The position numbers were made by a program, and so were the translations under genes. DNA of 64,000 nucleotides. It comes from Escherichia coli (lineage in GTDB: Bacteria; Pseudomonadota; Gammaproteobacteria; Enterobacterales; Enterobacteriaceae). The stretch lies in the NCBI RefSeq assembly GCF_050920415.1, contig NZ_CP169309.1. One strand, given 5' to 3'. Under the pieces are notes generated by a model that was not told where the DNA came from, did no database searches, and saw only the letters and a list, made by a program, of their open reading frames with translations. How positions within the stretch are numbered: position 1 is the stretch's first letter; each line of letters opens with the position of its first letter. Of the stretch, positions 3,568 through 64,000 are shown piece after piece.

Positions 3568-3897
3568 ATGAGCAATCTGAATCCATGCATGACGTGTGGT
3601 GCCTGTTGTGCATTTTTCCGCGTCTCTTTTTACTGGGCCGAAGCCGACGATGCTGGCGGTACCATTCCCGCCAGGCTCACTGAACAAATATCCCCTTTTC
3701 ACCGATGCATGAGCGGTACCAATCAGAAAAACCCCCGATGTATTGCCCTTGCAGGAACACCGGGCAAAAATGCCTGCTGCACGATATATAAAAATCGATC
3801 GTCCACGTGCAGAGAATTCGCCATGTCTGGTGAGAACGGAGTCGTCAATGAGGCTTGCAATCGTGCAAGAGCTAAATACGGGCTGACACCGTTATAA
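3568..3897 (+). CDS. ykgJ: Cys-rich YkgJ-family protein
   Basis: 109 aa, CxxCxxCC near the N-terminus; synteny ecpE-ykgJ-yagU-pao as in E. coli. Confidence 0.7.
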
Positions 3898-35216: not shown

Positions 35217-35233
35217 GGCAAAAGGCGTGCCAA
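35217..35233 (-). promoter_or_regulatory. Sigma-54 (RpoN) promoter upstream of lafB
   Basis: Minus strand reads TTGGCACGCCTTTTGCC (TGGCAC-N5-TTGC); about 30 nt upstream of the lafB ATG, which has a GGAG RBS. Confidence 0.6.
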
Positions 35234-35367
35234 TATTTTTTATGTTAATAATCAATAATTTGAAAAATGGGCGGAAAGCGTGTTTCCGGTTCGGCGGAAA
35301 AGTGCCTGCCGCAAAAAGCACAACACCGCCCGCAGGCGGTATTGAGACTGATGACAAACGCAACACT

Positions 35368-43481: not shown

Positions 43482-44267
43482 TTACAGCGTCTGACTGATG
43501 TACTGCAACATATCGTCCGCCGCCGAAACCATTTTGGCGTTCATCTCGTACGCGCGTTGCACCGTAATCATCGCCACCATTTCGTTGACGATATCCACGT
43601 TCGAGCCTTCGAGCGCATTGTCCTGCAAGGTGCCAAGCCCATCTTCGCCCGGTACGCCTTCGGTCGGCTGACCGCTGGCGGCGGTTTCCAGATAGAGGTT
43701 GTCGCCCTCGGCGGAAAGCCCCGCCGGGTTGGCGAAGTTCACCAGCGTCAGTTGCCCTAACTCGGTCACGTCGCTGTCGCCGGGTAAGATAGCCGTCACC
43801 GTACCGTCCTCACCAAACGCAACATTCGTCGCCCCCGCCGGAACGTCGATTTCCGGCTGCAATGGCAAGCCCTGCGAGTTGGTTAGCACGCCGTCGGCAT
43901 TCACCTGCAAATTGCCGTCGCGGGTATAGGCGATATCGCCGTTGGCCTTTTGCACCTGCAAAAACCCCTGCCCCATAATGGCGACATTCATCGCGTTGTC
44001 GGTGGTTTCGACGTTGCCTTCGGTAAAGGTTTTCTGAGTGCCGACAATGCGCACGCCGCTACCGAATTGCAGCCCGGTCGGCATGATGTTGTTCTGGTCG
44101 AGCATCGCGCCCGGCGCTTCCTGGGTCTGGTAGAACAGATCCTGAAACATCACCCGGTCGCGCTTGAAGCCGGTGGTGTTAACGTTGGCGATGTTGTTGG
44201 CAATCGCGCTCATTTCAGCATCCTGCGCCGAGAGGCCGGTTTTGCTGATCCATAATGCTGCGTTCAT
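43482..44267 (-). CDS. lfgG: Distal rod protein FlgG-like
   Basis: 261 aa, FlgG N-terminus (MNAALWISKTGLSAQ...). Confidence 0.9.
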   Translation of the reverse strand: MNAALWISKTGLSAQDAEMSAIANNIANVNTTGFKRDRVMFQDLFYQTQEAPGAMLDQNNIMPTGLQFGSGVRIVGTQKTFTEGNVETTDNAMNVAIMGQGFLQVQKANGDIAYTRDGNLQVNADGVLTNSQGLPLQPEIDVPAGATNVAFGEDGTVTAILPGDSDVTELGQLTLVNFANPAGLSAEGDNLYLETAASGQPTEGVPGEDGLGTLQDNALEGSNVDIVNEMVAMITVQRAYEMNAKMVSAADDMLQYISQTL

Positions 44268-47739: not shown

Positions 47740-47776
47740 TTCTTGCGCCACTCCCGCTTCAATCCGCATACGCTAA

Positions 47777-47792
47777 GCAATCGCTGTGCCAA
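47777..47792 (-). promoter_or_regulatory. Sigma-54 (RpoN) promoter of the lfgB-L operon
   Basis: Minus strand reads TTGGCACAGCGATTGCT (TGGCAC-N5-TTGC) about 40 nt upstream of the lfgB start. Confidence 0.6.
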
Positions 47793-47820
47793 TTTTTAAG
47801 TGACTGATGAGAAAGGGTTT

Positions 47821-48558
47821 ATGAGGTTTCAATTTTGCAGGCGGAAGTTGTATTTCCTCCTGGCGCTGGCCTTACCGGGCTACGCCGCCGTCCATCCCGT
47901 GCAACATAGCGCGCGGGAACAAATCAACGCCCAGGTGCTGAATGCCGCGAGCCAGCAGATTGAATCGCTGGCGCAACAGCGGCAGTGGCATGACTATCGC
48001 TACACCTTTAAGGTCTACATTCCCTCGCAGATTGCGACCGCCGCGCCCTGCGCTACGGCCCCCGGCGTCACGCTGACGTCGCCTGCGGAAATCGCTCTCA
48101 ACCGGATGAACTTCACCGTCAGTTGCCCGCAAAGCTGGCAGATGAACGTTGCGGTGCGCCCGGATGTTCTGGTGCCGGTGGTGATGGCGAAGTCACTGGT
48201 TGCCCGCGATACGCCGCTCACGGCAAATGATGTGGAGCTGAAGCCCTACAACGTCAGCGCCCAGCGGCGGGATGTGCTGATGGATCTCAATGAAGCGATT
48301 GGTTTAAGCAGCAAACATGCCCTGCAACCAGGCAGGCCGCTTACCAAAGAAGAACTGGTTTCGCCAGTGCTGATCGAGCGCGATCAGCCGGTGATGATTG
48401 TTTACCAGAGCGCGGGGATCACCGCCTCGATGCCCGGCGTGGCGCTGAAAAATGGTCGCAAAGGGGAAATGGTGAAAGTACGTAACGCCAGCAGCCAGCG
48501 GGTCATTAGCGCGATGGTGGCCGAAAGCGGCGTGGTGACAACGGTAAGCGCGGAGTAA
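47821..48558 (+). CDS. lfgA: P-ring assembly chaperone FlgA-like
   Basis: Signal peptide and SAF-type C-terminal domain; divergent from lfgB; start at second ATG. Confidence 0.75.
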   Translation: MRFQFCRRKLYFLLALALPGYAAVHPVQHSAREQINAQVLNAASQQIESLAQQRQWHDYRYTFKVYIPSQIATAAPCATAPGVTLTSPAEIALNRMNFTVSCPQSWQMNVAVRPDVLVPVVMAKSLVARDTPLTANDVELKPYNVSAQRRDVLMDLNEAIGLSSKHALQPGRPLTKEELVSPVLIERDQPVMIVYQSAGITASMPGVALKNGRKGEMVKVRNASSQRVISAMVAESGVVTTVSAE

Positions 48559-48746: not shown

Positions 48747-50171
48747 ATGTCTGAATTTGAATTACTCGTGAAAGATCTTCTTTTAAAATCAGAAGAAGAC
48801 GAGAAAAAGCGACAAGAAAAAGATCGAGAATTAATTTCAAAGGTCCTTGAAATCTATGATCAAAAATATGTTGCAGAACTCTTACGAAAACTAGGAAAAA
48901 ATGAATGGAGCAGAGAAACACTTAACCGTTGGATAAATGGTAAGTGCAATCCTAAGCAATTAACTTCTGCGGAGGAAACTTTACTCCGCAAGATGCTTCC
49001 AGAACCTCCTGAACATCATCCTAACTACACATTTCGTTTTATTGATTTATTCGCAGGGATTGGTGGTATTCGTAAAGGTTTCGAAAACATTGGTGGACAG
49101 TGTGTTTTTACCAGCGAATGGAATAAAGAAGCGGTAAGAACCTACAAAGCTAATTGGTTTAATGATGAACTAAATCATAAATTTAATCTTGATATACGAG
49201 AAGTCACTTTAAGTGATAGAGATGATGTTTCCGAAGTAGAAGCCTATAATCATATAGACAAAAATATTCCAGATCATGATGTCCTTCTGGCCGGTTTTCC
49301 ATGTCAGCCCTTTAGTCTGGCTGGGGTAAGCAAGAAAAACTCTCTGGGGCGTGCACATGGTTTTGAATGTGAGGCACAAGGAACACTATTTTTTGATGTC
49401 GCTCGGATTATTAAATCAAAAAAACCAGCTATTTTTGTGCTTGAGAATGTGAAAAACCTTAAAAGTCATGATAAAGGTAAGACTTTTAAAGTCATCATGG
49501 AAACACTCGATGAATTAGGATATGAAGTCGCCGATGCTGGTGTTACTGGCTCAGATGATCCCAAAATTATAGATGGAAAACATTTTTTACCCCAACATCG
49601 TGAGCGTATAGTGTTGGTAGGATTTCGTAGAGATCTGAATATTCACAAGGATTTCACGTTACGAAACATTAACCGCTTTTACCCTCAAAACAGGCCAACA
49701 TTTGGTGAATTATTAGATCATGATGTTGACGATAAATATATTTTGACTCCAAGGTTATGGGAATATCTTTACAATTATGCAAAAAAACATGCAGCAAAAG
49801 GCAATGGGTTTGGTTTTGGTTTAGTGGATCCTAAAAATCCAGATAGTATCGCAAGGACTCTGTCTGCTCGTTATCATAAAGATGGCTCTGAAATATTGAT
49901 TGATCGTGGCTGGGATAAGGCTGTCGGTGAAATTGACTTTAGTAATCCAGCGAATCAAGAGCATCGTCCAAGAAGACTGACACCTCACGAATGTGCCAGG
50001 CTAATGGGTTTTGAAAAACCAGGGGGAAGACCTTTTAGAATACCTGTATCGGATACACAAGCCTATAGACAATTTGGGAACTCAGTTGTTGTTCCAGTAT
50101 TTGAAGCTGTAGCAAGATTACTAGAACCATATATACAAAAGGCAGTCAATATGCATATTATTAACGATTAA
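48747..50171 (+). CDS. DNA cytosine-5 methyltransferase, EcoRII/Dcm family (CCWGG specificity predicted)
   Basis: Motifs [30 protein letters not shown]; near-colinear with the M.EcoRII/Dcm sequence as I recall it; GGGGA RBS before the ATG; AT-rich relative to flanks. Confidence 0.9.
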
Positions 50172-50194
50172 TAATAATTAATTTTCACTATTGT

Positions 50195-50217
50195 GAGGCC
50201 TTTTTATTAAAGGCCTC
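50195..50217. terminator. Bidirectional hairpin terminator between the convergent M and R genes
   Basis: gaggccttt-ttatt-aaaggcctc flanked by A/T runs. Confidence 0.5.
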
Positions 50218-50257
50218 TAAATATATAATCATGAGTTTTTACAAGTATGTTTTTATA

Positions 50258-51463
50258 TTATACAAAATCTTCATAAAGCGTTATTAACTGTGTAATAAAA
50301 CCATCTAATGTTAATATTTCCTCCCTGATTTCCTCCGGGTATTTTTTATGAAGAGGGGAAGGTACAACCAAGGTGACACCTTCAGCTCTCATTTCGTTAA
50401 ATTGAGCAACAGAGACACCCTCTTGCAAGGTAAACAAATATATCTTGTTGATTTTATTTGCTTCATTAAGCGCCTGTCGCCACCGATCCTTACATGTTGT
50501 TTTTACAGCAAGCATACGGAGTTTTTCTCTTGGAAAGTGATCATCATGGTAAGCTGCCGCTGATGGGAAAAGAAAATCGGGTTTCTTTTTTCCTTCAGTA
50601 ATACATTGAGTAGCAAAATGATGCAGTCCATGCTCAATAAAAATTTGCTCAAGATGTAGCTCCAGTGATTTCCCGGCTCGAGATTTTCTTCTATTACTAA
50701 CAGAGTTAGCCATAGCTATAAAATCATCTACAGAACCAAATCCTTGACGGATGATGTCCAGTACGTGAATTTCTTCAACCATTAGAAAGAGATCATATTC
50801 AATACGGCGGCGTTCTAAAAGTTGGTCATCTGGACTGGTTACGCCTGTTGGGTAATAACCTGCCGCATATTGGATAATATCTAAGCCAGAAGGAAAACTA
50901 TGTTTCCAGCTTTCCGGAATAACATATTCCTTTTGAGAGATTTTTGGCCTTGATGCGAGTACACCAAGTATTTCACTGGCAGGCCCAAACATTAAAGTTC
51001 CTGGAATGATCTCCCCAACAGCTGATTCCAGTACATCCTCTTCTTCTGGGCTTACACAAACCCATACATCAACACTTTTGCTGTCTCTCCCAGGCTCATG
51101 TTCAAACGCAAGCACAGACAAAGCACCTGTATTTTCCGGATCTTGTAGGGGACTGCCAGCCCCCCACCGAGTGATACGTTTTTCATTTCTTGTTTGCCCG
51201 AAATACTTATTATTGTAGTAAATAGCGCGAACCTCACTGTCTACACATTCATGAGAGGAATAAGTTGCGCGCAATAAAACCGAAGGATTTTTTTCTGACG
51301 TATGATCTATAGATGGGAAAAGTTCACCGACGATACCGGAAGGGATATATACCCCCACTTGATGCCCTCCTGTTGCACCAGTGTCGTTTGCTGAAAGACG
51401 TTTGATATAGAGATAATTGTTACCACCGACCTTATCAAGCAGCCAATCTTGTAATCCTGACAT
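50258..51463 (-). CDS. Type IIE restriction endonuclease, EcoRII family
   Basis: 401 aa; long conserved blocks matching R.EcoRII as I recall it (YIKRLSANDTGATGGHQVG, RNEKRITRWG, SPLQDPENTGAL, SVSNRRKSRAGKSLELHLE, KPDFLFPS, LRMLAVKTTCKDRWRQ); convergent with the methyltransferase. Confidence 0.85.
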   Translation of the reverse strand: MSGLQDWLLDKVGGNNYLYIKRLSANDTGATGGHQVGVYIPSGIVGELFPSIDHTSEKNPSVLLRATYSSHECVDSEVRAIYYNNKYFGQTRNEKRITRWGAGSPLQDPENTGALSVLAFEHEPGRDSKSVDVWVCVSPEEEDVLESAVGEIIPGTLMFGPASEILGVLASRPKISQKEYVIPESWKHSFPSGLDIIQYAAGYYPTGVTSPDDQLLERRRIEYDLFLMVEEIHVLDIIRQGFGSVDDFIAMANSVSNRRKSRAGKSLELHLEQIFIEHGLHHFATQCITEGKKKPDFLFPSAAAYHDDHFPREKLRMLAVKTTCKDRWRQALNEANKINKIYLFTLQEGVSVAQFNEMRAEGVTLVVPSPLHKKYPEEIREEILTLDGFITQLITLYEDFV

Positions 51464-51633
51464 AAGACATCCTTATTTTTGCATAGTATCCGATTCAGAT
51501 TTTTCCACATATCCATCAGAACGACCAGAACCAACATATCTGAACAAAAAGTAAATATGCGATAACGATTAAAGTTTTGCCGCCTGTTAACCGCTTTACC
51601 GGAGTAACCACCCAATACCGAGACGAGGTTGCG

Positions 51634-51912
51634 ATGAAAATCACCCCGACGATGCCAGGCAATCGCCCGACAGCCACAACGGCAGGCTCCAGCCAGCCGC
51701 GTAAAAGTACGGCGACCACCACCACGACGCTGAGTGCCGACGACATTACCCAGGCGGGATTGCAGTCTGCCCAGCAAACGCTGAACGACCAGCAAGAGAG
51801 CGATATCGACAGCGATAAAGTGGCGCAAATGCAGGCGATGCTGGCGTCCGGCAGCCTGCAAGTGGACACCGAACAGTTAGCCAGCGACATGCTGAGTTTT
51901 TTCCAGAACTAA
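51634..51912 (+). CDS. lfgM: Anti-sigma-28 factor FlgM-like
   Basis: Start at internal ATG with GAGG RBS; about 92 aa, Thr/Ser-rich N-terminus, C-terminal sigma-binding-like helix. Confidence 0.7.
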   Translation: MKITPTMPGNRPTATTAGSSQPRKSTATTTTTLSADDITQAGLQSAQQTLNDQQESDIDSDKVAQMQAMLASGSLQVDTEQLASDMLSFFQN

Positions 51913-51924
51913 GAGGCCGATGAA

Positions 51925-52353
51925 GTGAGTATCCGGTTACAACAGGTGAAGGCGTTGTTGCAGGGCATTCGTGACGATGACGCGCTGTACGATTCCCTGC
52001 GCGAACTTCTCCAGCGTCAGCGGATCTGCATGATTCGCCGCGCCAGTGAAGAGTTGCTGGCGGTAAACGACGAGATAACGCAGCACTATGAGCAGTTGCA
52101 TGGACATAGCCATCAGCGCCATAGCCTGCTGAAAATGCTCGGTGTTAGCGTCAATCGTGACGGTCTGGCGCAGGTGTTTGCCTGGCTTCCGGCGGTACAA
52201 AAAGCGGCAGCACAACAGTTGTGGCAACGCCTGGAGCAAAAAACGGAACGCTGCAAAGCCTATAACGATAAAAACGGCGAGCTGTTGATTCGTCAGTATG
52301 AATTTATTCAGTCTTTTTTAGGCAGCGAAGCGGATTTTCTGTATCAGGAATAA
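51925..52353 (+). CDS. lfgN: Flagellar export chaperone FlgN-like
   Basis: GTG start 8 nt after AAGAGG; 142 aa helical; follows lfgM. Confidence 0.65.
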   Translation: MSIRLQQVKALLQGIRDDDALYDSLRELLQRQRICMIRRASEELLAVNDEITQHYEQLHGHSHQRHSLLKMLGVSVNRDGLAQVFAWLPAVQKAAAQQLWQRLEQKTERCKAYNDKNGELLIRQYEFIQSFLGSEADFLYQE

Positions 52354-52430
52354 CGCGAATACCTTCCCCATAGCGGAAACGGATTTTCCGCCTGATTTCC
52401 AATCCTTTGTTTTTGATTAAAAAAATTCCC

Positions 52431-52445
52431 GGCACGCTTATTGCA
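52431..52445 (+). promoter_or_regulatory. Sigma-54-type promoter upstream of the 309-aa hypothetical gene
   Basis: GGCACGCTTATTGCA (GG-N10-GC spacing, TTGCA -12 element) about 35 nt before the ATG at 52480. Confidence 0.45.
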
Positions 52446-52479
52446 CATCCTGCACAGCATTAAAGACTGGAAGCCACCT

Positions 52480-53409
52480 ATGAGTTTTATTGAATGTTAC
52501 GAACCGGAATATGCGCGCAATTTTATGGCGCAATATCCCGATTCGCCTTTATACGTCCGCAAGGTGTGGAAGAATGAGATTCGCCAGAGCCTGGCATTGA
52601 CCGATATTGCCAGTTGCAAAGCAGTGCTCAACAATGCCAGGGCCTTTGAATTACAGCTTACCTATCGCCCTGTGGAAGAAAATGCCGCAGCGCTATCTGC
52701 GCGCGATGCGATAGTAAACCAGATAATTTTGAGCACCCTCACGCTCCCGGATTTAACCCCAGAGCTTTCACTGTATGCCGTCGGGATTTTGCTCTCCCGC
52801 GCCAGTAAAATGCCGGGCAGAGACGGCGACACTCTCGCCCGGCTGACAGCACTGCCGCAGGCGCTGGCCGATCACGCACAAAAAGGCACGTTACAGGCAC
52901 AGTTCGCACAGCTACCGCCTGTGCCACAGCTGGCGCGCCAACTGGTGACGCTGCTCGGGAGTTTTGCGTTTGACTGGTCGATTCTGCCGAAAAGCCCGCG
53001 CAAAGCCTCACTGCCGTTGCAGGTTACCTTGCTGACGCTGCACGACGCCAACAGCGAAGCCCTGTTGCAGCAGCAGCTTCAGACACAGTGGCAAACTACC
53101 TGGCAACAGCATTTTGCCACCGCGCCGTGGATGATGCGTAACTGGCTAATTTACCGGGTTTATCACGATGTGATTGGCCAGGCAGACGGGGCGGATTATT
53201 TCCCGCTGGTGTGCGATTTTTACCTCATCCGCACGTTAATCAGTTTATGGACGCTGGATGATTCACCGCTGCGGCAGGAGGATATTTTCGCCCTCTTCGC
53301 GGTGTTTGAACGCTGGCGAACCAGTGAAAATGCCGTGCTGATTCGCCAGCAAATTCAGTCATTATGTGCCGCCGACCCGCTGCTTTCAGCGTTTTCGTTG
53401 CTGACGTGA
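52480..53409 (+). CDS. Hypothetical protein, no recognisable domain; apparent sigma-54 regulon member within Flag-2
   Basis: 309 aa from the first ATG downstream of the promoter; typical GC content; the ORF-track start at 52441 is a TTG inside the promoter. Confidence 0.6.
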   Translation: MSFIECYEPEYARNFMAQYPDSPLYVRKVWKNEIRQSLALTDIASCKAVLNNARAFELQLTYRPVEENAAALSARDAIVNQIILSTLTLPDLTPELSLYAVGILLSRASKMPGRDGDTLARLTALPQALADHAQKGTLQAQFAQLPPVPQLARQLVTLLGSFAFDWSILPKSPRKASLPLQVTLLTLHDANSEALLQQQLQTQWQTTWQQHFATAPWMMRNWLIYRVYHDVIGQADGADYFPLVCDFYLIRTLISLWTLDDSPLRQEDIFALFAVFERWRTSENAVLIRQQIQSLCAADPLLSAFSLLT

Positions 53410-53416
53410 GTCGCTC

Positions 53417-53553
53417 TGTGCGCGCTTTGCCCTCACCCCGGCCCTCTCCCACAGGGAGAGGGAGAAACCCTGCGCCCAATTCAGCACCGCGCTCGATCGG
53501 TCCCCTCGCCCCTTCGGGGAGAGGGTTAGGGTGAGGGACATCAGCGCGCGCAT
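53417..53553. repeat. MITE-like composite palindromic repeat, copy C (inverted relative to A and B)
   Basis: Reverse complement of the copy A/B core: ccctcaccccggccctctcccacagggagaggg ... ggggagagggttagggtgaggg with gcgcgc ends. Confidence 0.7.
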
Positions 53554-53596
53554 TCAGCACCTCCATCACATTCACCCACTAACTCACCCAAACACC

Positions 53597-56041
53597 ATGC
53601 CAACACCAAGCATCATCAAAACACTCGCCACCCACCGCGAAAAACCGTTCGTCAGCGTCGTCACGCCAACATGGAACCGCGGCGCATTCCTCCCGTACCT
53701 GCTCTATATGTACCGCTATCAGGACTACCCGGCAGACCGCCGCGAACTGGTCATCCTTGACGACTCGCCGCAAAGCCATCAACACATCATCGACCGCCTG
53801 ACCAATGGCACGCCGGAAGCCTTTAACATCCGCTACATCCATCACCCGGAAAAACTGCCGCTGGGAAAAAAACGCAATATGCTCAACGAACTGGCGAGCG
53901 GCGAATATATCCTCTGCATGGATGACGACGACTACTACCCGGCAGATAAAATCTCTTACACCATCGCCATGATGCAAAAACACCGGGCGCTGATCTCCGG
54001 TTCCGACCAGATCCCCATCTGGTACAGCCATATCAACCGCATCTTTCAAAGCCGCAGCTTTGGCCCGCGTAACATCCTCAACGGCACCTTTTGTTATCAC
54101 CGTAACTACCTGAAAAAGCACCGTTACAATGACGATTGCAATTTAGGCGAAGAGAAAAGTTTCACCGACAATTTCAGCGTAAACCCGCTGCAACTGCCCG
54201 GCGAGCGCACGATTTTGTGTATTTCGCATAGCCACAACACCTTTGATAAAGACTTTATTCTCGGGGCCAGCACGCCAGTAAACGCGGCGCTTACGGATAT
54301 CGTCACCGATCCGCTGCTCCGCAATGCTTATCTGAGTCTGCATAACGCCACGCATCACCAGGGGATCAACCATCAGGCGATCTATCAGATCGTTCTGCTG
54401 AATCTGGATAAACGCCCGGATCGTTTACGGCAGATCCGTGAAGAGCTGGCATTGCTGCATATTCCGCCTGAAAAAATTACCCGCCTTGCCGCCTGTGAAG
54501 ATGAAAACGGTCAACGGGGCCGCCGCCTGTCGCACTTGCAGGCGCTACGCCTGGCGCAACAGCACGGCTGGCAAAACTATCTGCTGCTGGAAGATGACGC
54601 GGTTATTCTCAAGCAGGAGAAACATATTCAGGTGCTGAACACGCTGCTGGCGAGCCTGGCGAAAATTCCCTGGCAGGTGATGATCCTCGGAGGCGAAATT
54701 TCGCAAGGAACAATGCTAAAAAGCCTGCCGGGGCTGGTGCACGCGCAGGACTGCCGCAAAGTGTGCGCTTATCTGGTGAACAGCCGGTACTACCCACAAC
54801 TGGCGCAGCAGATGAGTAACGATGAGCACTCGCTGGAAGACGGCTGGCAGCCACTGCTGCGTGCCGACAAATGGCTGGCCTGTTACCCGAGCCTTAGTTA
54901 TCAGCGACCGGGCTTTAGCGATATCGAGAAAAAAGCGACTGATAACATTAACCACTACTTCAATAAGTTACCCGTAGCCACCAAGCCATCTACATTACCT
55001 ATCGCCGACACCATCGGCTTTTTAATGGAAACCTCATTCCACTACGCGCTCTATCGCCCAATCATCACCGCTCTACAGGCGCAGGGGCAGAGCTGCACGC
55101 TGGTGATCAACGACCGCGTGTTTAAACCGTTTCTGGATGAAATGCTGGAGACGCTAAAAACCATCGACGATCCGCAGCTCAAAGGTATGCGCTTGTCTGA
55201 GATGCAGGCACACGGTCAGCGGGTGAAATGCCTGGTCAGCCCCTACCACACGCCCGCGCTCAATGGCCTGGCAGCGGTGAACATCCGCGCTATGTACGGC
55301 TTAGCCAAAGAAACGTGGAACCACGCCGACTGGAACCGTTTTTATCAGCGCATTTTGTGTTATAGCCACTACAGTCAGCAGGCGCTGGCGCATTTCGGCA
55401 GCGCAAAAGTGGTCGGCAATCCACGCTTCGACGCCTGGCATAACGGCACGTTCGACCGTGCGTTGCCGGAAAATATCCAACCAGATTACCGTAAACCTAC
55501 GGTGCTCTACGCCCCAACATTTGGCGCATTAAGCTCCCTGCCCCACTGGGCAGAAAAATTGGGCCGCTTAAGCGGTGATGTGAACCTGATTTGCAAACTG
55601 CACCACGGTACCTGCTCGCGCCCGGAAGAAGCCGCATCGCTGACCCTGGCACGCAGGCATTTAAAGCAGAGCACCGACTCCGCCCGTCACACGCTGGCGA
55701 TGCTGGCAAAAGCCGATTACGTGCTCACCGATAACAGCGGCTTTATTTTCGATGCTATCCACGTTGATAAGCGGGTGATCCTGCTCGACTTTCCGGGCAT
55801 GACGGAACTGCTCGACGGTGAGAAAAGTTATTCCACACCGGAGAGCGCCGACCAGCGAATCCGCGAAATATTACCGGTGGCTCATGATATGGCTGAGCTG
55901 CGTTACTTATTGTCAGAGGCGTTTGACTGGGGGGCGGTACAGGCGCGGCTTACGGAGATTCGCCATCACTATTGTGACGCGTTTATGGATGGCAAGGCGG
56001 GAGAACGGGCGGCGATGGTGGTTGTGGAGGCATTGGGGTAA
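53597..56041 (+). CDS. Three-domain glycosyltransferase: GT2-like N-terminus, GT25-like middle, TagF-like CDP-glycerol glycerophosphotransferase C-terminus
   Basis: About 815 aa; N-terminus VSVVTPTWNR and DDD motif; middle LNLDKRPDRL..LLLEDDAV; C-terminus PTVLYAPTFG and YVLTDNSGFIFDA; ORF-track start at 53531 lies inside repeat C. Confidence 0.8.
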   Translation: MPTPSIIKTLATHREKPFVSVVTPTWNRGAFLPYLLYMYRYQDYPADRRELVILDDSPQSHQHIIDRLTNGTPEAFNIRYIHHPEKLPLGKKRNMLNELASGEYILCMDDDDYYPADKISYTIAMMQKHRALISGSDQIPIWYSHINRIFQSRSFGPRNILNGTFCYHRNYLKKHRYNDDCNLGEEKSFTDNFSVNPLQLPGERTILCISHSHNTFDKDFILGASTPVNAALTDIVTDPLLRNAYLSLHNATHHQGINHQAIYQIVLLNLDKRPDRLRQIREELALLHIPPEKITRLAACEDENGQRGRRLSHLQALRLAQQHGWQNYLLLEDDAVILKQEKHIQVLNTLLASLAKIPWQVMILGGEISQGTMLKSLPGLVHAQDCRKVCAYLVNSRYYPQLAQQMSNDEHSLEDGWQPLLRADKWLACYPSLSYQRPGFSDIEKKATDNINHYFNKLPVATKPSTLPIADTIGFLMETSFHYALYRPIITALQAQGQSCTLVINDRVFKPFLDEMLETLKTIDDPQLKGMRLSEMQAHGQRVKCLVSPYHTPALNGLAAVNIRAMYGLAKETWNHADWNRFYQRILCYSHYSQQALAHFGSAKVVGNPRFDAWHNGTFDRALPENIQPDYRKPTVLYAPTFGALSSLPHWAEKLGRLSGDVNLICKLHHGTCSRPEEAASLTLARRHLKQSTDSARHTLAMLAKADYVLTDNSGFIFDAIHVDKRVILLDFPGMTELLDGEKSYSTPESADQRIREILPVAHDMAELRYLLSEAFDWGAVQARLTEIRHHYCDAFMDGKAGERAAMVVVEALG

Positions 56042-56367: not shown

Positions 56368-57189
56368 ATGACTTCTGATAAAAAAGTAACTTCCGGTACG
56401 ACAAGCCAGAAACAAAACAACATTGTCACTCAAAAAATATCACGCCAGAAGGAATTGTTTCTATTATTTTGGGTTGATGAGTCCGATGATAGCCGACGTT
56501 CTATTTTTGAAGAAGCATGTCTGACGCGTTATTTCAATATCCTTTATTCCCCCGAGTATAAAAAAGAAACACAGATAGTTTATCATTTATCAATTAACAC
56601 ATTTAATCAAATCAAAGAAATATTAGAAATCTTTATAAACAAGAATGGAGGTAAAACTAAAGCAAAGGTTAAAGAAGTCAGTTTATTCTCACATGGGGGG
56701 CCAATTCATGGTCCTACAACCTCAAACTCTATAAATACACCTTCCGTGCCTAAATACCCACAACAAATGGACATATCCGGAGGATGGGATTCAATTGATT
56801 TTAACTGGTCAAACAATGCTATGTTTGTTATGTATGGTTGTCGCACTAGTTATGCAAGTGATGATTCAGGACAAGGTTTTGCCAGTAAATTATCCCTATT
56901 AGATAATTTTAAGGACGTGAATGTCTGGGGTCAAACAGAAAGTACTTATCCATCTTATTTCCCAGATATCAGGACAACGTCGATTATGAGGTCAATAAAT
57001 ATAGGTTGGTCTTTTTCACCAACATATATGGTTGCCAATTCTGAAGGTCAAGGATGGGATGCATTATTCCCGGATAATCGAAATCCATTAAAAGCTCTCC
57101 CTATGCAGTGTTATAATAATGGGACATTGATTTTAACCTGCGATCAAAGCAATTTTAATGATCACCGGAAGAATAAATCAAATGATTAG
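56368..57189 (+). CDS. Hypothetical protein in AT-rich DNA, no assignable domain (candidate toxin/effector of a two-gene cassette)
   Basis: 273 aa single long ORF in strongly AT-rich DNA; no signal peptide; possible His...Cys pair (FSHGGPIHG ... MYGCRTS); weak RBS. Confidence 0.55.
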   Translation: MTSDKKVTSGTTSQKQNNIVTQKISRQKELFLLFWVDESDDSRRSIFEEACLTRYFNILYSPEYKKETQIVYHLSINTFNQIKEILEIFINKNGGKTKAKVKEVSLFSHGGPIHGPTTSNSINTPSVPKYPQQMDISGGWDSIDFNWSNNAMFVMYGCRTSYASDDSGQGFASKLSLLDNFKDVNVWGQTESTYPSYFPDIRTTSIMRSINIGWSFSPTYMVANSEGQGWDALFPDNRNPLKALPMQCYNNGTLILTCDQSNFNDHRKNKSND

Positions 57190-57721
57190 CATTGTATTGA
57201 GAAGCTTTATTTTATTATTCATAATAATAGTGTATCCGGATTATAATAAAAACCCACCTGCCTTTGAAGTATATGGGGAAAATGACATACTTAAGGATAT
57301 GGTTATTAATATGAAAACTTATAGATACCATAGTAAGGAAAACTCTTCCCCCACAGCTATAGTGCAAACCATCCTTTTTAAAGGAAATATACAGCAAGTT
57401 TTTGAAAGCAATGACATGGGTGGTGCGAGCTTCTTTTTTTCTTATAATAATAAGGTTGAAACGCTGGTAACAGACGCTTTCTTTTTAAATAAAAAATTAG
57501 ACAAACTGCATGATGCAAATATTTTTGAGGTTATAAAGCATAAGGAAAACATCGTTATTAGATATTACAAGTGCAAAATTGAATATATGCAAAGAGAAAA
57601 ATTTATCGAAATAGAGATATCAACAAACAAAAATAGTTATTTTAACAAGAATGGAATAAAACAAAAAGATACAAATAAATATAACACATATTTCTTCAAT
57701 TACTTTGAGTCTCAAAAATAA
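57182..57721 (+). CDS. Hypothetical protein with N-terminal hydrophobic anchor, AT-rich (candidate immunity/partner protein)
   Basis: ATG overlaps the stop of the upstream gene (ATGATTAG); N-terminal SIVLRSFILLFIIIVY hydrophobic segment; Asn/Lys/Tyr-rich; alternative start at 57158. Confidence 0.5.
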   Translation: MISIVLRSFILLFIIIVYPDYNKNPPAFEVYGENDILKDMVINMKTYRYHSKENSSPTAIVQTILFKGNIQQVFESNDMGGASFFFSYNNKVETLVTDAFFLNKKLDKLHDANIFEVIKHKENIVIRYYKCKIEYMQREKFIEIEISTNKNSYFNKNGIKQKDTNKYNTYFFNYFESQK

Positions 57722-57724
57722 ATT

Positions 57725-58129
57725 TTATTTTGTCATGCGCGCCCTCCTAATCACCTCAATAATCCCCGTCGTCGACACCGACGGCGTGCGGGGGAAATAG
57801 ACCACCTCACAAATATACGCGAAGCTATCAAACTTCCCTGCCCAGTCATCGCCCATCACCAAAACATCCGCACTGTACCCCCGCAGATATTCCGCTTTCT
57901 GCGCCAGCGATTCCTCGAGAAATACGCCATCCACGCACGCCAGCCCGGCGATAATCGCCATGCGGTCATCCTGAGGGTAAACCGGTGCCCTGCCCTTTTT
58001 GGCAATATTTAAGGCGTCGGACGACACGCCAACCAGCAGCCGTTCGCCCAGCGTGCGGGCGCGTTGTAAAAGGCGCAGATGACCGACATGAAACACATCG
58101 AAGGTGCCGAAGGTGATGACCGTTTTCAT
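57725..58129 (-). CDS. Cytidylyltransferase, TagD-like (glycerol-3-phosphate cytidylyltransferase family)
   Basis: N-terminal FGTFDVFHVGH nucleotidyltransferase motif; about 134 aa; ATG 2 nt after the lfiJ stop with a GGAG RBS inside the lfiJ 3-prime end. Confidence 0.8.
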   Translation of the reverse strand: MKTVITFGTFDVFHVGHLRLLQRARTLGERLLVGVSSDALNIAKKGRAPVYPQDDRMAIIAGLACVDGVFLEESLAQKAEYLRGYSADVLVMGDDWAGKFDSFAYICEVVYFPRTPSVSTTGIIEVIRRARMTK

Positions 58130-58131
58130 GG

Positions 58132-58566
58132 CTACTCCGCTAATTTGTGCCGTAGCCAGCACTGAACGGCGATGTCATCCACCGCTTTTTGCGCTTTCGC
58201 CGTGGCACTTTCTTGCTGCTCGCGGCGTTTGTCATCCAGCGTCAGGGCCACCACTTTCTCTTCGCATGCCGCCGCCGTCAGGTTTTTCTGCATTCGCGTA
58301 GCCTTGATGTTAGCCAGCGTTTTTTCCTGCTCCTGCCAGGCGATCACTTTGCGCAAGGTGCCTTTGTAGCCGCTGACGTTTTTCAGCGATTCCACCGACG
58401 CCGCCGCGCCCGCAGATGTTTTCTCCACCAGGTAGCCTAACGCTTTGATATTGTTGTCATAGCCCGCGCAAATCTGTTTTTGCTTTGCCAGCTCGACGGT
58501 TTTGTCTTTGACCGATTTATCCCGCAGGCGCTGCAATTGCGCGAGGGTGTCGATGATTTGTCGCAT
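58132..58566 (-). CDS. lfiJ: FliJ-like flagellar export protein
   Basis: 144 aa coiled-coil protein immediately downstream of the FliI-like ATPase. Confidence 0.65.
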   Translation of the reverse strand: MRQIIDTLAQLQRLRDKSVKDKTVELAKQKQICAGYDNNIKALGYLVEKTSAGAAASVESLKNVSGYKGTLRKVIAWQEQEKTLANIKATRMQKNLTAAACEEKVVALTLDDKRREQQESATAKAQKAVDDIAVQCWLRHKLAE

Positions 58567-63607: not shown

Positions 63608-64000
63608 TCAGGAGAAAACTTCGATACCGTGCTTGCGCATGGAGGCCAGTCGATAGCGCAGGGCGCGCGGGGTAATGCCTAACAAGTCGGCGATTTTGCT
63701 GCGGTTGCCCTGATATTTACGCATCAGGTCGGCGATATATTGATACTGCGCGCTTCGTCCGTGCTGGCCTAAATCACCGGTTTCGGCAATGTGGACGGCG
63801 GGCTGAACAGGCCATTGCAGATCGCTGTGGTCTGCAATATCGGTGTCCGGCAGGCCTAATGCATCCGGGTAAATTACGCCGTCGCGATTTAAAATCATTC
63901 CCCGCTGAATGGCGTTTTCCAGTTGACGCACGTTACCGGGCCAGCGGTAATTAAGCAGCGCGCGGCGGGTGGATTCGGACAGGGTGATATTTTTCACCAG
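63608..64000 (-). CDS. lafK: Sigma-54-dependent transcriptional activator, 3-prime fragment (5-prime end outside the window)
   Basis: C-terminal AAA+ signature (PGNVRQLENAIQRGMIL) and Fis-type HTH (KIADLLGITPRALRYRLASMRK); open to the window edge. Confidence 0.75.
   Translation of the reverse strand: MVKNITLSESTRRALLNYRWPGNVRQLENAIQRGMILNRDGVIYPDALGLPDTDIADHSDLQWPVQPAVHIAETGDLGQHGRSAQYQYIADLMRKYQGNRSKIADLLGITPRALRYRLASMRKHGIEVFS

What the first reader, a model, noticed from the sequence alone, without database searches (positions are those of the whole stretch)
52431..53409. Flag-2-embedded 309-aa protein with no recognisable domain and its own sigma-54-type promoter
The gene follows lfgN, has typical genomic GC content (so is not obviously recent cargo) and is preceded by a sigma-54-like promoter, yet I cannot match it to any flagellar or glycosylation family. 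It lies immediately upstream of the three-domain glycosyltransferase and may be a specificity or chaperone component of the modification pathway, or a new flagellar accessory protein.
Basis: partly seen in the sequence, partly recalled or inferred. Interest (0 to 1): 0.5.

Follow-up and report, generated by a model that had tools for sequence, protein, structure and literature searches.

The report
LafV: FliB relative lacking catalytic cysteines
The gene is real and already catalogued as lafV, a relative of the Salmonella flagellin-methylating enzyme FliB. It has lost the iron-sulfur segment that FliB needs for activity and always sits beside a glycosyltransferase, so it is more likely a helper of flagellin glycosylation than the "lysine methylase" that databases call it.

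Summary
The ORF (52480-53409, +, 309 aa) is real. It is under purifying selection (dN/dS 0.10-0.16) and lies in an E. coli Flag-2 locus. It is not domain-less: it is LafV, which carries the FliB_C domain (PF27117) and is described in the literature as a FliB orthologue.

The sigma-54 promoter (52430-52445) is conserved across more than 20 species. It is preceded at a fixed 40 nt by an invariant GGAA-N7-TTCC palindrome. The same arrangement is found at the lfgB promoter and before lafB, so the palindrome is probably the LafK site.

New here: LafV is FliB with a clean internal deletion of about 90 aa. All 8 cysteines invariant in full-length FliB are gone, including the CX4CX3CC [4Fe-4S] ligands shown to be essential for methyl transfer. 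The NCBIfam FliB score is 43.8 bits against a cut-off of 85. The confident model (pLDDT 96) has no solved structural relative.

In every Flag-2 locus examined except one cut-off contig (L009), short LafV abuts or overlaps an orthologous GT2 glycosyltransferase, whichever gene comes first.

My best reading (about 45%) is a non-catalytic, FliB-derived partner or specificity subunit of the flagellin glycosyl/glycerophosphate-transferase module. A fused AlphaFold test was inconclusive. The gene is known; the variant reading is new.

The parts
52375..52389 (.). Palindrome GGAAACGGATTTTCC (GGAA-N7-TTCC), 40 nt upstream of the sigma-54 element. Candidate binding site (UAS) for the sigma-54 activator LafK.
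   Evidence: The window holds 5 matches against 0.92 expected, and 0 of 100 shuffles reached 5. Three of the five lie 40-51 nt upstream of the three best sigma-54-like sites of the Flag-2 locus. The same pairing holds at the lafV promoter in 23 of 24 loci and at the lfgB promoter across species. GGAA and TTCC are invariant while the N7 varies.
52430..52445 (+). Sigma-54 type -24/-12 promoter element, CGGCACGCTTATTGCA.
   Evidence: Conserved with at most 2 mismatches, 34-96 nt before the start codon, in all 24 loci with a long lfgN-lafV spacer. Absent in the 4 loci where lafV follows lfgN by only 20-23 nt.
52469..52473 (+). Shine-Dalgarno-like GGAAG, 6 nt before the ATG.
   Evidence: Read directly from the sequence.
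52480..53409 (+). lafV coding sequence: 309 aa, FliB_C domain only, lacking the FliB iron-sulfur segment.
53430..53537 (.). Inverted pair of a dispersed GC-rich intergenic repeat (arms 53430-53450 and 53517-53537). It enlarges the lafV-GT spacer in this lineage.
   Evidence: One search shows arms of 21 nt, 86% complementary. Parts of the spacer occur in 4097 of 5426 E. coli genomes at a median of 2 places, but only 7 genomes hold the whole spacer. In most other species lafV and the GT abut or overlap.
53597..56041 (+). Partner gene, the GT2-1 glycosyltransferase. It has a GT2 N-domain, a GT25-like middle domain and a TagF-like (CDP-glycerol glycerophosphotransferase-like) C-domain.
   Evidence: The orthologue lies immediately next to short LafV in every locus examined except L009. 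In L036 the TagF-like part is a separate PF04464 gene.
57725..58129 (-). TagD-like cytidylyltransferase (glycerol-3-phosphate cytidylyltransferase family), conserved next to lfiJ. Probable donor-synthesis gene of the same modification module.
   Evidence: TIGR01518, E 1.6e-32, 112 bits, below the cut-off of 165. Its conservation is shown.
51925..52353 (+). lfgN (FlgN-like chaperone), the upstream neighbour.
47776..47857 (-). Comparator: the lfgB promoter. It has a perfect sigma-54 element at 47776-47791 and a GGAA-N7-TTCC palindrome at 47843-47857, 51 nt upstream.
63608..64000 (-). 3' part of lafK, the sigma-54 enhancer-binding protein. It is cut by the window end.
   Evidence: One search gives the annotation of the near-identical genome. 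One search shows matches to the C-terminal parts of the profiles of sigma-54-dependent regulators.

Best explanation
The gene is lafV of the E. coli Flag-2 (lateral flagella) locus.

Shown:
- It encodes only the FliB_C domain of the flagellin lysine methylase FliB. The ~90-residue cysteine-rich iron-sulfur segment has been cleanly excised from between the first helix and the second strand.
- None of FliB's 8 invariant cysteines remain.
- It is under purifying selection.
- It is transcribed from a conserved sigma-54 promoter.
- It is always the immediate neighbour of an orthologous GT2 glycosyltransferase.

Inferred:
- The sigma-54 promoter is activated by LafK bound at a GGAA-N7-TTCC site about 40 nt upstream. 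That would put lafV and the downstream glycosyltransferase in the LafK-dependent (middle) class of Flag-2 genes.
- LafV no longer methylates lysines. It has been kept as a non-catalytic partner of the GT2/TagF-like enzyme. Most likely it is the flagellin (LafA)-recognition or scaffold subunit that presents the flagellin to the transferase in the cytoplasm before export. This would play in trans the role that TPR domains play in FlmG and Maf-1, and that GlfM plays for Maf-2.
For: Identity:
- 99.9% DNA identity to an E. coli chromosome whose Flag-2 genes flank it.
- PF27117 FliB_C.
- NF038110 matched at profile positions 107-364 only.
- LafV nomenclature in PMC6993521.

Loss of catalytic apparatus:
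- In Salmonella FliB the CX4CX3CC motif (C17, C22, C26, C27) binds a [4Fe-4S] cluster, and the quadruple alanine mutant has no cluster and no methylation (PMC8598068).
- An HMMER search of 1.84 billion representatives finds two length classes. Long forms (390-437 aa) have CX4CX3CC at residues 14-23. Short forms (297-325 aa) lack it.
- In a 78-sequence alignment the 31 long forms have exactly 8 invariant Cys columns. The window protein has none: 6 are deleted and 2 are substituted (A17, D42).
- Of 43 columns at least 80% conserved in long forms, only 13 survive in the E. coli/Citrobacter-type short forms, mostly hydrophobic ones. The LSCPE motif and a conserved His are lost.

Still functional:
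- dN/dS is 0.10-0.16.
- 51 columns are invariant down to 43% identity.
- The AF2 model has pLDDT 96 and pTM 0.93.

Coupling to the GT:
- In all 23 species-level loci from genome contigs, and in the other loci with enough flanking DNA, the order is lfgN-lafV-GT2-1, often abutting or overlapping.
- In Pantoea, Rouxiella, Paramixta and a metagenomic contig the order is reversed (lfiJ-GT2-lafV), again overlapping.
- The counts in PMC6993521 fit: LafV in 342 loci; GT2-1 in 222 and GT2-3 in 99.
- Salmonella FliB (fused to a solubility tag) methylates flagellin in vitro with no glycosyltransferase present.
- One metagenomic protein fuses a Cys-less FliB_C to a PM0188 sialyltransferase-like domain.

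Precedent for cis-encoded helical specificity factors of flagellin glycosyltransferases: 10.1101/2023.12.03.569772 and PMC7591256.

Promoter.
Against: - No direct evidence of LafV-GT or LafV-flagellin binding.
- The fused LafV-linker-GT(1-480) AlphaFold run gave pTM 0.61, with a poorly modelled GT2 domain, so no confident complex.
- The role of FliB_C inside FliB is itself unknown.
- A second class of short LafV (Pantoea, Rouxiella, Buttiauxella) keeps four invariant cysteines (CxCxxC plus the LSC cysteine). These could still bind metal, so the short family as a whole may not be non-catalytic.
- The E. coli-type family has its own invariant polar residues (E33, R35, N80, Q81, K110, R174, K175, D189, E277, R280). 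These could form an active site for other chemistry.
- Adjacency in a locus dedicated to flagellin modification does not by itself prove a physical partnership.
- The natural fusion is a singleton on a 2.2-kb, low-coverage contig, with only the first 156 of 390 positions of the sialyltransferase model matched.
Confidence: 0.45

Rival explanations
1. LafV is what the databases say: a flagellin lysine-N-methylase of the lateral flagellin LafA. It would work without its own iron-sulfur segment, either by a different SAM chemistry in the FliB_C domain or with an Fe-S partner supplied in trans (for example a YkgJ-type cysteine-cluster protein).
For: - Homology to FliB over about 260 residues, and structural similarity with TM 0.75-0.8 to 400-aa FliB/FliU models.
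- Flagellar location.
- Named as a predicted N-lysine methylase in PMC6993521 and in RefSeq.
- Some short forms keep 4 invariant Cys.
Against: - All 8 FliB-invariant Cys are absent, including the four whose mutation abolishes cluster and activity.
- The NCBIfam score of 43.8 is below the curated cut-off of 85.
- Most polar FliB-conserved positions are lost.
- The fold resembles no known methyltransferase.
- No CX4CX3CC-type ORF exists in the Flag-2 part of the window. The only CxxCxxCC hit is at 3586-3609, far outside the locus.
Confidence: 0.2
2. LafV is an enzyme of a new kind in the same pathway. It would use the FliB_C scaffold for chemistry on the glycan or on the glycerol-phosphate substituent, for example tailoring or transfer of a non-sugar group, rather than for substrate recognition.
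For: - A strongly conserved set of polar residues specific to the short family.
- Strong purifying selection.
- Constant membership of a module that also holds GT2, GT25-like, TagF-like and TagD-like functions.
Against: - No cofactor or nucleotide-binding motif is detectable.
- No structural similarity to any solved enzyme.
- The residues retained from FliB are mainly structural.
Confidence: 0.17
3. LafV acts on flagellin handling independently of the glycosyltransferase, for example as a LafA-binding chaperone, an export checkpoint or a regulatory factor. This would be in line with its position after the chaperone gene lfgN and the anti-sigma gene lfgM.
For: - It follows lfgM and lfgN on the same strand, and in 4 loci it is only 20-23 nt from lfgN, so it is probably co-transcribed there.
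- It is a largely helical protein.
Against: - In the reversed arrangement it is not next to lfgN in transcription terms. It overlaps the GT2 gene in the lfiJ operon instead. The constant neighbour is the GT, not lfgN.
- 250 of 592 Flag-2 loci lack LafV, so it is not part of the core export machinery.
Confidence: 0.1
4. LafV is a decaying remnant of a fliB gene with no present function.
For: It is an internally deleted derivative of a longer enzyme.
Against: - dN/dS is 0.10-0.16.
- It is full length and 39-97% identical in 23 species.
- It has its own conserved promoter.
- The predicted fold is very confident.
Confidence: 0.03

Closest known systems
FliB, flagellin lysine-N-methylase of Salmonella enterica (NCBIfam NF038110; Wang et al. 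2021, PMC8598068)
   Same: Homologous over the whole FliB_C domain (about 260 residues). Shares the first ~15 residues (Y-x-P-E-F-V-x-x-F) and the N..Y...FP motif. Encoded in a flagellar locus. Presumably meets flagellin in the cytoplasm.
   Different: Lacks the ~90-aa cysteine-rich segment and all 8 invariant Cys, including the CX4CX3CC [4Fe-4S] ligands essential for activity. Scores below the family cut-off. Always paired with a GT2, whereas Salmonella FliB methylates flagellin in vitro with no glycosyltransferase present.
LafV orthogroups LafV1-LafV10 of Flag-2 variable region 1 (De Maayer et al. 2020, PMC6993521)
   Same: This gene is a member. It has the same position (between lfgN and lfiJ), the same size (228-318 aa listed) and the same E. 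coli/Citrobacter proteins.
   Different: Nothing differs in the gene. What differs is the reading. The paper lists these proteins as predicted N-lysine methylases orthologous to FliB. In the passages I retrieved from it I found no mention of a missing iron-sulfur segment or of the strict pairing with GT2. It predates the FliB mechanism paper.
GlfM, the cis-encoded specificity factor of the Maf-2 flagellin glycosyltransferase (bioRxiv 10.1101/2023.12.03.569772)
   Same: Concept only: a small helical protein encoded next to a flagellin glycosyltransferase, which binds the enzyme and flagellin to form a ternary complex.
   Different: GlfM is predicted to be a four-helix bundle and works with a Maf-type sialyl-like transferase. 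LafV is a 309-aa FliB_C fold (a 4-stranded sheet plus 15 helices) next to a GT2. No homology was shown or tested beyond the absence of PDB matches.
TPR flagellin-binding domains of FlmG (PMC7591256) and Maf-1
   Same: Helical modules that give a flagellin glycosyltransferase its acceptor specificity. The Flag-2 GT2-1 has no such domain of its own.
   Different: Those are domains fused to the enzyme and are TPR repeats. LafV is a separate protein with an unrelated fold.
YkgJ / PF03692 CxxCxxCC cysteine-cluster proteins
   Same: The segment deleted from LafV is the part of FliB that the FliB paper compares with PF03692. One long FliB homologue is named 'YkgJ family cysteine cluster protein'.
   Different: LafV retains nothing of it.

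Membership tests
FliB flagellin lysine-N-methylase (NF038110) | Whole-protein score at or above the curated NCBIfam cut-off (85 bits), covering the full profile. | tested here: not met
   43.8 bits, profile positions 107-364 of 373 only. Full-length relatives score 167-267 bits.
FliB flagellin lysine-N-methylase (NF038110) | N-terminal CX4CX3CC motif that ligates the [4Fe-4S] cluster essential for methyl transfer (PMC8598068). | tested here: not met
   In the alignment the motif columns are a gap (3 of 4) or Ala17. All 8 Cys columns invariant in 31 long forms are missing.
FliB flagellin lysine-N-methylase (NF038110) | FliB_C domain. | tested here: met
   PF27117 is precomputed for the identical protein and its relatives. 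Foldseek gives TM 0.75-0.8 to FliB/FliU models.
FliB flagellin lysine-N-methylase (NF038110) | SAM-dependent methylation of flagellin lysines. | not testable with these tools
   Needs biochemistry or mass spectrometry of LafA.
LafV (Flag-2 variable region 1 orthogroup) | Located in VR1 between lfgN and lfiJ of a Flag-2 locus. | tested here: met
   lfgN ends at 52353 and lfiJ lies at 58132-58566. VR1 is defined in PMC6993521.
LafV (Flag-2 variable region 1 orthogroup) | A protein of about 300-318 aa, orthologous to the E. coli/Citrobacter 'lateral flagellar associated protein'. | tested here: met
   100% identical to cluster P0001 and 56% identical to the C. rodentium protein. Sizes are listed.
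Sigma-54 (RpoN) dependent promoter | GG at -24 and GC at -12 with exact 10-nt spacing and a good match to TGGCAC-N5-TTGCW. | tested here: met
   CGGCACGCTTATTGCA, 1 mismatch.
Sigma-54 (RpoN) dependent promoter | Conservation of the element at orthologous promoters. | tested here: met
   All 24 loci with a long spacer have it, with perfect consensus in L033 and L034.
Sigma-54 (RpoN) dependent promoter | A cognate enhancer-binding protein and an upstream activator site. | tested here: inconclusive
   lafK is present at the window end. A conserved GGAA-N7-TTCC palindrome sits at a fixed 40-53 nt upstream of three Flag-2 sigma-54 elements. That LafK binds it has not been shown.
Sigma-54 (RpoN) dependent promoter | Transcription depends on rpoN. 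| not testable with these tools
   Needs expression data.
GlfM-type flagellin glycosyltransferase specificity factor | Small four-helix-bundle protein encoded beside a Maf-2 type transferase. | tested here: not met
   LafV is 309 aa with a 4-stranded sheet and 15 helices. Its neighbour is a GT2, not a Maf. This is a functional analogy only.

The most novel reading that the evidence does not exclude
LafV is a pseudo-enzyme. It descends from a [4Fe-4S] flagellin methylase, has shed its catalytic iron-sulfur segment, and was re-used as the flagellin-recognition subunit of a two-protein flagellin glycosyl/glycerophosphate transferase. That would make FliB_C a previously unrecognised flagellin-binding fold. 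The whole module would be switched on by LafK through a newly defined GGAA-N7-TTCC enhancer site.
Probability: 0.35. Interest if true: 0.6.

Novelty: new variant of a known kind. Interest (0 to 1): 0.42.

Why it matters
Thousands of Enterobacterales proteins are named 'lysine-N-methylase' through homology to FliB. For the Flag-2 short forms, that name rests on a domain that lacks the cofactor site shown to be essential, so predictions that lateral flagellins are methylated may be wrong.

If LafV is instead the acceptor-recognition partner of the GT2 enzyme, three things follow:
- FliB_C would gain a function (flagellin binding), which would also explain how FliB itself finds its substrate.
- A third solution to flagellin-glycosyltransferase specificity would be added, beside fused TPR domains and GlfM.
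- The LafV/GT2 pair would become a simple two-gene system for reconstitution.

The GGAA-N7-TTCC site offers a testable operator for the Flag-2 master activator.

Tried and rejected
- Pfam-A (local copy) on LafV gave no hit. The family, PF27117, is newer than that copy.
- A sequence search of the PDB gave nothing significant.
- Rfam on 51400-53700 gave only sub-threshold chance hits.
- The simple terminator and sigma-70 scans gave nothing convincing around the gene.
- A six-frame scan for a separately encoded CX4CX3CC or CxxCxxCC partner found none in the Flag-2 region.
- The fused LafV-(GGGGS)6-GT(1-480) AlphaFold run, with a 20-species paired alignment, gave pTM 0.61. The GT2 domain was poorly modelled and no PAE or coordinates were available, so the result is inconclusive rather than negative.
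- Rosetta-stone search: one fusion of FliB_C with a PM0188-like domain (P0230) was found. A homologue search returned only the protein itself, so I treat it as a lead only.
- I could not retrieve Ren et al. 2005, the original Flag-2 description. The LafV name is therefore cited through PMC6993521.
- The reading 'recent cargo' is rejected. GC matches the locus, unlike the EcoRII/Dcm pair and the two AT-rich ORFs.

Full report
**What is there.** The window is an Escherichia coli chromosome segment carrying the Flag-2 (lateral flagella) locus. The 1.3 kb around the finding is 99.9% identical to NZ_CP169399.1. There the neighbours are annotated flgA, a DNA cytosine methyltransferase, a type II restriction endonuclease, flgM, flgN, 'hypothetical protein', glycosyltransferase, two hypotheticals, a cytidylyltransferase, then fliJ, fliI, fliH, fliG, fliF, fliE and a sigma-54 activator.

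The ORF list gives 52441-53409 from a TTG. The orthologues all begin MSxIECYEP, which corresponds to the ATG at 52480. GC is 54.5%, against 54.8% for the Flag-2 core and 28-41% for the obvious cargo genes nearby. About a quarter of complete E. coli genomes (1276 of 5426) carry the region.

**It is not domain-less.** The local Pfam-A library finds nothing. NCBIfam NF038110 'flagellin lysine-N-methylase FliB' matches at E 2.3e-11. The big protein collection has the identical protein pre-assigned to PF27117, named FliB_C, with NCBI names 'lysine-N-methylase' or 'hypothetical protein'. De Maayer et al. [quoted passage not shown] They occur in variable region 1 of 342 of 592 Flag-2 loci. The same paper reports the EcoRII/Dcm insertion seen in this window. 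So the gene is known and named.

**What the homology does and does not cover.** The NCBIfam hit covers profile positions 107-364 of 373 and scores 43.8 bits, below the curated cut-off of 85. Wang et al. 2021 (PMC8598068) showed that Salmonella FliB carries one oxygen-sensitive [4Fe-4S] cluster bound by the N-terminal CX4CX3CC motif (C17, C22, C26, C27). The quadruple alanine mutant lost both the cluster and all methylation. They also noted that FliB has 8 highly conserved cysteines and no SET or Rossmann domain.

A profile search of 1.84 billion representative proteins gave 151 relatives in two classes. Proteins of 390-437 aa align from about residue 110 onward and carry CX4CX3CC at residues 14-23. 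Proteins of 297-325 aa align from residue 1 and lack it.

In a 78-sequence alignment both classes share the first ~15 residues (Y-x-P-E-F-V-x-x-F). The short forms then skip about 90 residues. The 31 long forms have exactly 8 invariant Cys columns. The window protein has none of them: six are deleted, and two are replaced by Ala17 and Asp42. Of 43 columns at least 80% conserved in the long forms, the E. coli/Citrobacter-type short forms keep 13. These are nearly all hydrophobic, plus E95, N221 and Y225. The LSCPE motif and a conserved histidine are lost.

A second short class (Pantoea, Rouxiella, Buttiauxella and others) retains CxCxxC plus the LSC cysteine, four invariant Cys in all. It looks like an intermediate.

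**Context.** I annotated every fetched locus with phmmer, using the window's own proteins as queries. In all 23 species-level loci from the genome collection, and in the E. coli, C. rodentium and metagenomic loci with enough flank, the order is lfgA-lfgM-lfgN-lafV-GT2-1.
- The GT is orthologous throughout (E 1e-130 to 1e-180 for the GT2 domain).
- It usually starts within a few bases of, or overlaps, the lafV stop.
- In C. rodentium the GT is split in two.
- Only L009, a cut-off contig, could not be scored.

In the CxCxxC class the arrangement is reversed: lfiJ-GT2 (466-504 aa, homologous to the N-terminal and middle domains of GT2-1)-lafV, again overlapping by 14-26 nt. In L036 this is followed by separate TagD-like and PF04464 (TagF-like) genes.

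The window's GT has three parts: a GT2 domain; a middle part related to stand-alone GT25-like proteins; and a weak PF04464 match in its C-terminal part. A TagD-like cytidylyltransferase sits next to lfiJ.

The published counts fit a strict pairing: LafV in 342 loci, GT2-1 in 222 and GT2-3 in 99. By contrast, the closest long-form relative (Limnobaculum) is not in a flagellar locus and has no GT neighbour. Salmonella FliB (fused to a solubility tag) methylates flagellin in vitro with no glycosyltransferase present.

**Promoter.** CGGCACGCTTATTGCA at 52430-52445 has one mismatch to the sigma-54 consensus. An equivalent site, with at most 2 mismatches and GG/GC invariant, lies 34-96 nt before the start codon in all 24 loci with an lfgN-lafV spacer of 126 nt or more. 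It is absent in the four loci where the spacer is 20-23 nt.

While comparing the spacers I noticed an invariant GGAA-N7-TTCC palindrome.
- In the window it occurs 5 times against 0.92 expected.
- Three of these lie 40, 40 and 51 nt upstream of the three best sigma-54 elements of the locus: lafV, the site before lafB/fliD at 35217-35232, and the perfect lfgB promoter at 47776-47791.
- Across all loci the pairing recurs at fixed distances: 40-41 or 49-51 nt at lafV, and 51-53 nt at lfgB. The N7 varies freely.

This is the signature of a protein-binding site. The obvious candidate is LafK, whose gene ends the window. In this particular lineage the lafV-GT spacer has been enlarged by an inverted pair of a dispersed E. 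coli intergenic repeat.

**Mechanism.**
- Shown: homology restricted to FliB_C, loss of every FliB cysteine, purifying selection, a conserved sigma-54 promoter, and constant order-independent adjacency to an orthologous GT2.
- Inferred: LafV is no longer a FliB-type methylase. It serves the neighbouring transferase, most simply as the flagellin-recognition or scaffold subunit.
- The GT2-1 protein has no recognisable acceptor-binding domain. Known flagellin glycosyltransferases obtain specificity from a fused TPR domain (FlmG, PMC7591256; Maf-1) or from a cis-encoded helical factor that bridges enzyme and flagellin (GlfM with Maf-2, bioRxiv 10.1101/2023.12.03.569772).

I tried to test a LafV-GT complex with a linker-fused, species-paired AlphaFold run. 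With only 20 sequences the GT2 domain was poorly modelled and pTM was 0.61, so the test is inconclusive. One metagenomic protein fuses a Cys-less FliB_C to a PM0188-type sialyltransferase-like region, but it is a singleton.

I put the partner model at about 0.45. The rivals are: a still-active methylase (about 0.2); a new enzymatic activity in the same pathway (about 0.17); a GT-independent flagellin-handling role (about 0.1); and a functionless relic (about 0.03).

**Verdict.** The added value is threefold: the database name 'lysine-N-methylase' is not supported for this class; LafV forms a fixed pair with a GT2; and its promoter shares a conserved upstream palindrome with other Flag-2 sigma-54 promoters. 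Interest is moderate. It is a new variant of a known kind.

Noticed in passing
window 52375-52389, 47843-47857, 35273-35287 (also 43840-43854 and 50916-50930): A GGAA-N7-TTCC palindrome lies at a fixed 40-53 nt upstream of the sigma-54 elements of lafV, lfgB and the site before lafB/fliD. It is conserved in more than 20 species with a free N7, making it a candidate LafK operator. Of the other two window matches, one lies inside lfgG and one inside the restriction gene; the latter is probably chance.
   Followed up: partly
window 48747-51463: An AT-rich (37-41% GC) DNA cytosine methyltransferase plus EcoRII-like restriction endonuclease pair is inserted between lfgA and lfgM, splitting the lfgAMN operon. 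The same insertion is reported for 21 Escherichia strains in PMC6993521.
   Followed up: partly
window 56368-57721: Two very AT-rich ORFs (273 aa at 35% GC; 187 aa at 28% GC) lie between the glycosyltransferase and the TagD-like gene. They have no NCBIfam match and are present in the 99.9%-identical genome but absent from most other loci. They look like recent cargo of unknown function.
   Followed up: no
window 53430-53537: An inverted pair of a ~50-nt GC-rich dispersed intergenic repeat fills the lafV-GT spacer. Pieces of it occur in 4097 of 5426 E. coli genomes, K-12 derivatives included, but only 7 genomes have this whole spacer. From memory it resembles the 'box C' class of E. coli repeats; I did not verify that.
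   Followed up: partly
window 53597-56041 and 57725-58129: The glycosyltransferase combines GT2, GT25-like and TagF-like (weak PF04464) parts, and a glycerol-3-phosphate cytidylyltransferase-like gene is conserved beside lfiJ. In L036 the TagF-like part is a separate gene. This suggests a sugar plus glycerol-phosphate (teichoic-acid-like) decoration of the lateral flagellin.
   Followed up: partly
L011, L012, L036, L037 (Pantoea, Rouxiella, Paramixta-like, metagenome): A second class of short LafV keeps four invariant cysteines (CxCxxC plus one more). It sits after, and overlaps, a 466-504 aa GT2 in the lfiJ operon. It may be an evolutionary intermediate that still binds metal.
   Followed up: partly
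L010 7001-8218 (Limnobaculum zhutongyuii): The full-length FliB homologue closest to LafV is not in a flagellar locus. It lies between a 342-aa radical-SAM gene that is divergent from efp and looks EpmB-like by position, and groEL. This raises the question of whether its substrate is flagellin at all.
   Followed up: no
L039 391-2202 (metagenomic contig, protein P0230): A 603-aa protein fuses a cysteine-less FliB_C domain to a PKD-like stretch and the first 156 positions of the PM0188 sialyltransferase model. It is a singleton on a 2.2-kb low-coverage contig.
   Followed up: partly
L005 7994-10552 (Citrobacter rodentium-type locus): The GT2-1 orthologue is split into a 289-aa GT2 ORF and a 526-547 aa ORF carrying the middle and C-terminal parts. 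This is either a natural split or a frameshifted pseudogene.
   Followed up: no
L007 11295-12124 and L031 10609-11447: In two Enterobacter/metagenome loci the lfiJ-like and TagD-like genes lie on the same strand as lafV and the GT, opposite to lfiI. Elsewhere they lie on the opposite strand from lafV, so variable region 1 has been rearranged there.
   Followed up: no
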